A stretch of 62,618 bases of DNA, filler included, from Mustelus asterias (lineage: Eukaryota), in NCBI RefSeq assembly GCF_964213995.1. It is 4 parts of 4 records of this genome, joined end to end, with 100 filler letters (N's around TTAATTAATTAA, not from the genome) between each part and the next. Parts side by side here need not be neighbours in the genome. Positions count along the whole stretch, not along the records: positions 23,762 to 39,543 come from NW_027590452.1; 3 more parts are not named here. One strand, 5' to 3'. Positions 26,681 through 27,193 of the stretch are shown here, in pieces. Below the pieces are notes generated by a model that searched no databases, was not told the DNA's origin, and saw only the letters and a program-made list of their open reading frames with translations. The translations under genes were made by a program, and so were the position numbers. Position 1 is the first letter of the stretch. Every line of letters begins with the position of its first letter.

Positions 26681-27022
26681 AGCACAGTCTCTGCCCAAAG
26701 GCTTCCCCAGTTCAGCTGCTCAGAGACACTGGGAATGTCTTCAAGTGGAAACTTCAGCTTCTCACATTCACCCCCTGTGTTCAGTCATTGTTTCCTAGAC
26801 AAAGTAGTGAAGAACATTGGGAGAACATGCTTCCAGCTTAAGAATTCCACAAAATCAGCAGAATTGTAAAATTATGTCAACTCTTGTACTCTGATGTGAA
26901 GAAGTAATTTTATATCATGGGCAGTCCTCATTTATTGGGAGACTAAGAGGCGTTACCCAATGACAGGATTGGCTTGTTGCTCAGTGTTGTCAAGAATTGG
27001 CCACCGAACAACATTGGTTGTA

Positions 27023-27154
27023 TCCAGCAACAACTACGCCCCAGCAATTAAGGATCGATTTACTGCGTCCAAAGACACTTCACGCAACATCTTCTCTTTG
27101 GAAATGACGAGGCTGAAGACCGAAGACACCGCCATCTATTACTGTGCAAGAGAC
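27023..27154 (+). pseudogene. IGHV: IgM heavy-chain VH segment, 5'-truncated (end of CDR2 plus FR3 only)
   Basis: Translates [44 protein letters not shown], a typical shark VH FR3 with YYCAR. It is followed directly by an RSS. No leader, FR1 Cys or WVRQ motif is found upstream. Confidence 0.95.
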
Positions 27155-27193
27155 CACAGCGAGAGGAACAAGGGATGGACCCGGACAAGAACA
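27155..27193 (+). promoter_or_regulatory. VH 23-RSS
   Basis: Heptamer CACAGCG 27155-27161, 23-nt spacer, nonamer ACAAGAACA 27185-27193. Confidence 0.93.

What the first reader, a model, noticed from the sequence alone, without database searches (positions are those of the whole stretch)
26870..27193. Truncated VH on an otherwise intact, apparently rearrangeable cluster
Seen: V homology begins abruptly at ~27023, in CDR2, with no gap nearby. Leader, FR1, CDR1, FR2 and the normal V promoter are absent, yet FR3, all RSSs, D, J and CH1 carry no disabling change. An in-frame ATG at 26960 adds 21 foreign residues ([21 protein letters not shown]). Inference: either a very recent pseudogenising rearrangement, or a D-D-J-C cassette kept as an acceptor for V segments or VDJ exons from other clusters, or a source of V-truncated heavy chains.
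Basis: partly seen in the sequence, partly recalled or inferred. Interest (0 to 1): 0.7.

Follow-up and report, generated by a model that had tools for sequence, protein, structure and literature searches.

The report
Headless shark antibody gene, still transcribed
A shark IgM antibody gene has lost the front half of its variable segment to foreign DNA, and a second sample holds the same join spliced to a foreign exon, so it is likely a recently broken gene read by a neighbour's transcript, not a new kind of antibody.

Summary
The truncation is real. A shark IgM V-D-D-J-CH1 cluster has V homology starting at 27022, in CDR2. Upstream lie a 219-nt piece of another repeat family (26803-27021) and a high-copy CpG-rich unit, so there are two joins, not one. 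An independent RNA-like run (X4, depth 4.9) has one contig crossing both joins, with 2 differences in 269 nt. That contig is also spliced GT-AG to a foreign exon ending at 25805, which argues strongly against an assembly chimera. Three other runs (X1, X5, X7) hold the 219-nt piece with other flanks and show no join. The parts differ from their sources by 0-1.3%, so intact RSSs, D, J and CH1 fit a young age alone (P about 0.25-0.65). The in-frame ATG is the sixth in the spliced RNA, has weak context and gives no clear signal peptide; 13% of random joins have one. CH2-CH4 and TM exons are absent from the window, and CH1 ends in an unsized gap. Best reading: a young, possibly polymorphic pseudogene caught in a foreign transcript. 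A switch-acceptor role is not excluded but has no support. The scan had not noted this DNA before.

The parts
25740..25805 (+). Foreign (non-Ig) exon spliced onto the V remnant; donor AG|GTGAGT. 5' edge inferred from an AG acceptor at 25738-39.
   Evidence: The loose letters of X4 record 10 match 25774-25803 exactly, one match, chance 0.00. Context.
25806..26784 (+). 979-nt GT-AG intron holding a SINE-like copy (25931-26144) and most of the CpG-rich unit
   Evidence: skipped in X4 record 10
26150..26802 (.). High-copy CpG-rich unit (GC 0.68, CpG o/e 0.82 at 26301-26700) with a CTCF-like motif 26214-26227 and a 33-bp x3.1 RFX-like repeat 26366-26469. Other copies continue differently after 26802.
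   Evidence: (X1 record 3: 93 nt, 0 differences, depth 3762; loose ends behind 26802 in X1, X2, X3, X5). Motif names are recalled.
26785..27021 (+). Foreign part of the chimeric exon, from acceptor TTCAG| across join 1 (26802/26803) to join 2
   Evidence: X4 record 10 covers 26783-27051 with 2 differences
26803..27021 (.). 219-nt piece of a second, lower-copy repeat family with other natural flanks on both sides; source unidentified
   Evidence: X1, X5 and X7 pieces start at 26805-26806 and run on unlike V near 27022. No Pfam or Rfam match.
26960..27022 (+). In-frame ATG plus 21 foreign codons; sixth ATG of the spliced RNA, context CCCA-ATG-A
27022..27154 (+). IgM VH remnant (end of CDR2, FR3, CAR-D). 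The A at 27022 is shared by the V and the foreign donor (1-nt microhomology).
   Evidence: Pfam V-set positions 42-99 of 109
27155..27193 (+). V 23-RSS (CACAGCG / ACAAGAACA)
27565..27645 (+). D1 (27593-27607) with 12-RSS and 22-RSS
27946..28014 (+). D2 (27974-27986) with two 12-RSSs
28342..28428 (+). 23-RSS and JH (AMGYWGQGTMVTVTA), GT donor at 28429
28429..39257 (+). J-C intron, 10.8 kb, with internal duplications, simple repeats, a G-rich 20-mer array (37757-38281) and a sized N gap (34871-35012)
39258..39543 (+). C-mu 1 exon, open frame, 2-aa in-frame deletion, cut at its 3' end by a 100-base linker gap
   Evidence: (85% to Triakis scyllium IgM)

Best explanation
This is a shark IgM V-D-D-J-CH1 cluster whose V is joined at CDR2 to two pieces of foreign repeat DNA, and it is likely a young germline pseudogene that is passively read by a neighbouring transcript. 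Shown: the two joins, the intact RSSs/D/J, an open CH1, and a second sample in which a foreign exon is spliced to the V remnant across both joins. Inferred: a break repaired with about 1 nt of microhomology (one event with a templated 219-nt insert, or two successive events) removed promoter, leader and the front of V from a copy or allele of a working cluster. Downstream parts are intact because little time has passed. The RNA is a low-level by-product with five upstream ATGs and a stop at 27224 when unrearranged, and it is predicted to give no secreted or membrane heavy chain. The cluster may also lack CH2-CH4.
For: Join present in an independent RNA-like run with 2 differences in 269 nt. 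The splice maps to GT-AG exactly. Parts are nearly identical to their sources: unit 0 of 93, insert 1 of 206 and 1 of 221, FR3 0 of 97 against an X4 contig that has a different 5' end, five X4 pieces 15 of 1183. Chance of no disabling hit is 0.67, 0.51 and 0.26 at 0.3%, 0.5% and 1% one-lineage divergence (rough model). In X1 the bin depths are fully explained without any join contig (274.6 and 534.7 predicted and seen), which fits a polymorphic or lineage-limited event. Best 11-residue hydropathy is 1.62 against 2.35-2.66 in 5 real leaders. None of the 10 hits aligned over the foreign N-terminus. IgM pseudogene clusters are known in nurse shark (PMC2435157, PMC5192425).
Against: The locus is transcribed and spliced, so it is not silent. 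X4 also holds low-depth, 97.5-99.5% identical pieces over the D1-J spacers and the J intron, which could come from this copy, unrearranged or partly rearranged. At 1.5% one-lineage divergence the intact state has only P = 0.13. The join rests on one contig at depth 4.9, with 30 letters on the V side, one short of the tool's 31-letter rule. X4 is not on record as RNA. Selection was not tested and CH2-CH4 could not be seen.
Confidence: 0.78

Rival explanations
1. Switch acceptor: the foreign exon acts like a mammalian I exon. Its sterile transcript opens the J-C intron, so AID-driven inter-cluster switching would place VDJ exons of other clusters on this C-mu.
For: A spliced foreign-exon RNA enters the cluster. 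Inter-cluster V-to-C switching is reported in nurse shark (review PMC4279169). CH1 and its acceptor are open.
Against: No CH2-CH4 in 23 kb. No evidence that the RNA reaches the intron or CH1 of this copy. The join is young and not seen in X1. Switching uses ordinary clusters and needs no dedicated acceptor.
Confidence: 0.09
2. RAG acceptor: full V segments of other clusters join to this D-D-J, which adds combinatorial diversity.
For: All six RSSs are intact.
Against: Shark joining is intra-cluster: 97 partial rearrangements with one possible exception (PMC2435157) and the abstract of PMC2191167. The remnant keeps its own 23-RSS 438 nt from D1, which would compete.
Confidence: 0.04
3. Source of V-truncated heavy chains: after an in-frame V(D)J join, the ATG at 26960 would give a protein with half a V domain.
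For: The frame is open from 26960 through FR3, and the ATG lies in a spliced RNA.
Against: Sixth ATG with weak context; poor signal-peptide profile. 13% chance frequency. The remnant covers only V-set positions 42-99 of 109 and lacks the first Cys and the Trp. CH1 is kept, whereas heavy-chain-disease proteins typically escape by losing it (PMC5760076).
Confidence: 0.04
4. Assembly chimera: the join was made by mis-merging repeats.
For: Both flanks are repeats. Three runs (X1, X5, X7) show the pieces without the join.
Against: X4 has both joins in one contig, with its own differences and a splice that the assembly lacks. There is no gap within 3.2 kb.
Confidence: 0.03

Closest known systems
Elasmobranch IgM minilocus VH-D1-D2-JH-C-mu (PMC2435157 abstract and passages; PMC5192425 section 6.1); nearest named proteins Triakis scyllium BAJ20180.1 and Mustelus asterias XP_078062221.1
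   Same: One V, two D and one J within about 1.4 kb of remnant; RSS order 23, 12/22, 12/12, 23; C-mu1 85% identical; FR3 41 of 42 aa identical to P0006
   Different: No promoter, leader or FR1-FR2; foreign spliced exon; CH2-CH4 and TM not seen
Nurse shark IgM pseudogene clusters (Groups 6-8, G2C; passages in PMC2435157) and 5'-truncated V pseudogenes in general (recalled class)
   Same: Whole cluster in germline form that cannot give a normal heavy chain
   Different: The lesions of those pseudogenes could not be read (Lee 2008 not held). Here the lesion is one young 5' replacement, with a spliced foreign exon.
Shark inter-cluster isotype switching (Zhu 2012, seen only as summarised in PMC4279169 and PMC5192425)
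   Same: Gives a route by which a C region without its own V could be used
   Different: Described for ordinary clusters; no evidence here that this C is used
Heavy-chain-disease proteins (PMC5760076, passage) and V-less IgW (PMC5192425, passage)
   Same: V partly or wholly missing; insertions occur in heavy-chain disease
   Different: Those are somatic or splice products that are secreted. Heavy-chain disease typically loses CH1, and V-less IgW keeps the leader. This locus is germline, has no leader and keeps CH1.

Membership tests
Functional shark IgM cluster | Leader and complete V exon | tested here: not met
Functional shark IgM cluster | V-D1-D2-J with 12/23-compatible RSSs within about 2 kb | tested here: met
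Functional shark IgM cluster | C-mu1 of IgM class, open frame, correct splice phase | tested here: met
   3' end hidden in a gap
Functional shark IgM cluster | C-mu2-4, secretory tail and TM exons | tested here: inconclusive
   None found by tblastn in the window, but an unsized linker gap follows CH1 and no genome is held
Young 5'-truncated Ig pseudogene | Disabling lesion in real germline DNA | tested here: met
   The assembly and an independent run carry the join; D and J are unrearranged in the window
Young 5'-truncated Ig pseudogene | Near identity to an intact sister V | tested here: met
   X4 records 12 and 15, 0 differences; intact upstream V in loose ends
Young 5'-truncated Ig pseudogene | No purifying selection and no protein product | not testable with these tools
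   Too few changes and no orthologous contigs; only a chance model
I-exon-type switch acceptor | Sterile transcript from an upstream non-V exon | tested here: inconclusive
   A foreign exon is spliced into V; splicing to CH1 or passage through the intron is not shown
I-exon-type switch acceptor | Foreign VDJ found on this C region | not testable with these tools
Heavy-chain-disease-like chain | Signal peptide and loss of CH1 | tested here: not met
   (hydropathy only, no signal-peptide predictor); CH1 present
RAG-made germline rearrangement | Heptamer-like CAC at the cut | tested here: not met
   None of the removed flanks read from the loose ends begins with CAC or ends in GTG at either join (table 7)

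The most novel reading that the evidence does not exclude
A shark IgM cluster has swapped its B-cell V promoter for a foreign transcription unit whose spliced sterile RNA opens D-D-J and the J-C intron: a newly born I-exon analogue that lets a headless cluster rearrange and lend its C-mu to VDJ exons of other clusters.
Probability: 0.08. Interest if true: 0.75.

Novelty: new member of a known kind. Interest (0 to 1): 0.3.

Why it matters
As a pseudogene it is ordinary birth and death of shark Ig clusters. Its use is as a natural promoter swap. All RSSs are intact, the V promoter is gone and a foreign transcript runs in. Comparing joins at this locus in B cells and thymocytes of carriers would test whether the V promoter, any transcription, or neither is needed for RAG access in a shark minilocus, a question left open in PMC2435157. 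If the C region proved complete and used, it would model how I-exon-driven switching could begin.

Tried and rejected
No whole genome is held, so sister clusters could not be aligned. The run search listed no holder on record as RNA; 6 of 20 listed runs were laid. The absence of the join in X1, X5 and X7 is a hole in contigs, not proof. X4 has no cover at 27284-27526, which is not interpretable. The source of the foreign DNA was not found: Pfam on 6 frames of the insert and on 5 flank ORFs, Rfam, a protein search with the exon frame (0 of 7 candidates), and representatives with a minus-strand frame (2 hits; P0021 read and repetitive, P0020 not read). A metagenome scan for CH1 found 0 of 282 candidates, so the DNA after the CH1 gap could not be compared with a normal intron. 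A cryptic RSS at the joins was not found. An AID-hotspot break in CDR2 was considered: CDR2 is rich in such motifs, so the position says nothing. The octamer scan was empty near V but is no test, since shark VH promoters lack it (recalled). Zhu 2012, Lee 2008 and Zhu 2011 were not held. No structure was predicted.

Full report
What is there. The window holds one shark-type IgH cluster on the + strand: a V remnant with a 23-RSS at 27155, D1 (12/22), D2 (12/12), J with a 23-RSS and a GT donor at 28429, a 10.8-kb intron and CH1 from 39258. CH1 is IgM class, 85% identical to Triakis scyllium IgM. The remnant matches a Mustelus asterias gene model at 41 of 42 residues. tblastn with six shark IgM proteins finds only this remnant, J and CH1. 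It finds no leader, FR1, FR2, CH2-CH4, tail or TM exon. CH1 lacks two residues against P0001 and P0006 and runs into a 100-base linker gap of unknown true size (39544-39643). A C2H2 zinc-finger exon lies at 45911-46780 on the minus strand.

Is the join real? No genome is held, so I laid 6 of 20 listed public runs. Run X4 behaves as RNA, though it is not on record as such: depth piles on V and J, it has a J-to-CH1 loose end at 28428 and a V-J join with added letters. X4 record 10 (305 nt, depth 4.9) matches 26783-27051 with 2 differences. It extends 30 letters into V, one short of the tool's 31-letter rule but exactly where a contig merging into shared V sequence would end (inference). Of its 36 loose letters, the 30 shown match window 25774-25803 exactly. 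These are followed by AG|GTGAGT, and the aligned part starts at the acceptor TTCAG|26785. The contig is therefore a GT-AG splice over 979 nt. A separate sample thus carries the join and transcribes it from a foreign exon. A chimeric assembly is very unlikely.

Anatomy of the lesion. There are two joins. Left of 26802 lies a CpG-rich, high-copy unit (X1 record 3: 93 nt, 0 differences, depth 3762), whose other copies continue differently in X1, X2, X3 and X5. Positions 26803-27021 are a piece of a second family: in X1, X5 and X7 it begins at 26805-26806 with other sequence before it, and near 27022 it runs on unlike V. The A at 27022 is shared by that donor and by intact V. No CAC heptamer abuts either cut on the removed sides, so this does not look RAG-made. 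I could not name either donor. In X1 the bin depths are explained to the decimal by contigs without the joins (274.6 and 534.7), and X5 and X7 show the same pattern at the first join. Of the four runs in the narrow lay, one shows the join. X2 record 9 also runs on unlike V after 27022; X3 could not be resolved. Contig holes prove nothing, but the pattern fits a polymorphic or lineage-limited event.

Why the rest is intact. The parts are nearly identical to their sources: 0 of 93, 1 of 206, 1 of 221, and 0 of 97 in FR3 against an X4 contig with a different 5' end. Five X4 pieces differ at 15 of 1183 positions. A rough model of critical RSS, splice, Cys/Trp, stop and indel targets gives P(no disabling hit) of 0.67, 0.51, 0.26 and 0.13 at 0.3, 0.5, 1 and 1.5% one-lineage divergence. 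Intactness is therefore weak evidence of selection.

Could it make a protein? In the spliced RNA the ATG at 26960 follows five short upstream ORFs and has C at -3 and A at +4. Unrearranged, it stops at 27224 after 88 aa. Its best 11-residue hydropathy is 1.62 against 2.35-2.66 in five real leaders (no signal-peptide predictor was available). An in-frame ATG at least 21 codons before a random join occurs in 13% of 20,000 trials. The remnant covers V-set positions 42-99 of 109. None of 10 protein hits aligned over the foreign N-terminus. Heavy-chain-disease chains are secreted because CH1 is typically lost (PMC5760076, passage); here CH1 is kept.

Could it be an acceptor? V(D)J joining in sharks is within a cluster (PMC2435157, abstract and passages; PMC2191167, abstract). 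V-to-C switching between clusters is reported (PMC4279169, passages; PMC5192425, section 6.1; the primary paper was not held). A foreign sterile transcript entering a promoterless cluster resembles an I exon (recalled concept). However, nothing shows that the RNA reaches CH1 of this copy or that CH2-CH4 exist. X4 has near-identical low-depth pieces over the D1-J spacers and the J intron, which cannot be tied to this copy.

Known versus new. Nurse shark has IgM pseudogene clusters, and promoters appear associated only with V segments (PMC2435157 and PMC5192425, passages). Seven searches listed no title or abstract on a shark IgM cluster with a foreign spliced exon on a truncated V. I saw listings only for most of these, and key J Immunol and Curr Biol papers were not held. 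PMC12227049 was searched for terms and gave only a reference. The scan has no look-alike of this DNA. It did note a V stub replaced by a ZNF gene and other IgM pseudogenes in the same genome, which suggests such breakage is common here; those notes are unchecked.

Verdict. A real, young, 5'-truncated IgM cluster caught in a foreign transcript, most likely non-functional (0.78). It is a new member of a known kind. Interest 0.3, mainly as a natural promoter-swap test of RAG access.

Noticed in passing
lay on window 27148-27986, runs X1, X2, X3: The same V-to-D2 join with 30 letters between stands in three DNA-like runs of two samples at about single-copy depth (44.9, 4.84, 40.4): likely a germline-joined VDD-J cluster in organism A.
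   Followed up: no
P0006 (XP_078062221.1): The Mustelus asterias model of the same V/J subfamily has intact FR2/CDR2 but ends just after CH1, apparently reading into the intron. The subfamily may lack CH2-CH4, or the model is incomplete.
   Followed up: partly
window 26214-26227, 26366-26469, 26521-26530: CTCF-like motif, three RFX-like boxes in a 33-bp repeat and an NRF1-like motif in a CpG island. A minus-strand GTGAG donor near 26338 hints at a leftward gene, to which the chimeric RNA would be antisense.
   Followed up: partly
window 28787-32214: The J-C intron holds 70-78% identical internal duplications (28787-29198 / 29419-29832; 29724-29937 / 30423-30649; 30648-30908 / 31955-32214).
   Followed up: no
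window 37757-38281: G-rich 20-mer array, 25.6 copies, 1 kb before CH1, like those noted at other IgM clusters of this genome.
   Followed up: partly
window 45911-51475 and 42194-42284: Minus-strand C2H2 zinc-finger gene with a promoter-like region near 51060-51475; a 73% similar promoter-like piece lies 2.6 kb behind CH1.
   Followed up: partly
window 23662-23761, 39544-39643, 51644-51743: Three 100-base N44-TTAATTAATTAA-N44 linkers mark joins of unknown size; order across them is unverified.
   Followed up: yes
run X2: A loose end looks like a transposase adapter (recalled), and depth is raised over the CpG unit relative to X1, as an open-chromatin library would give; this cannot be assigned to this copy.
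   Followed up: no
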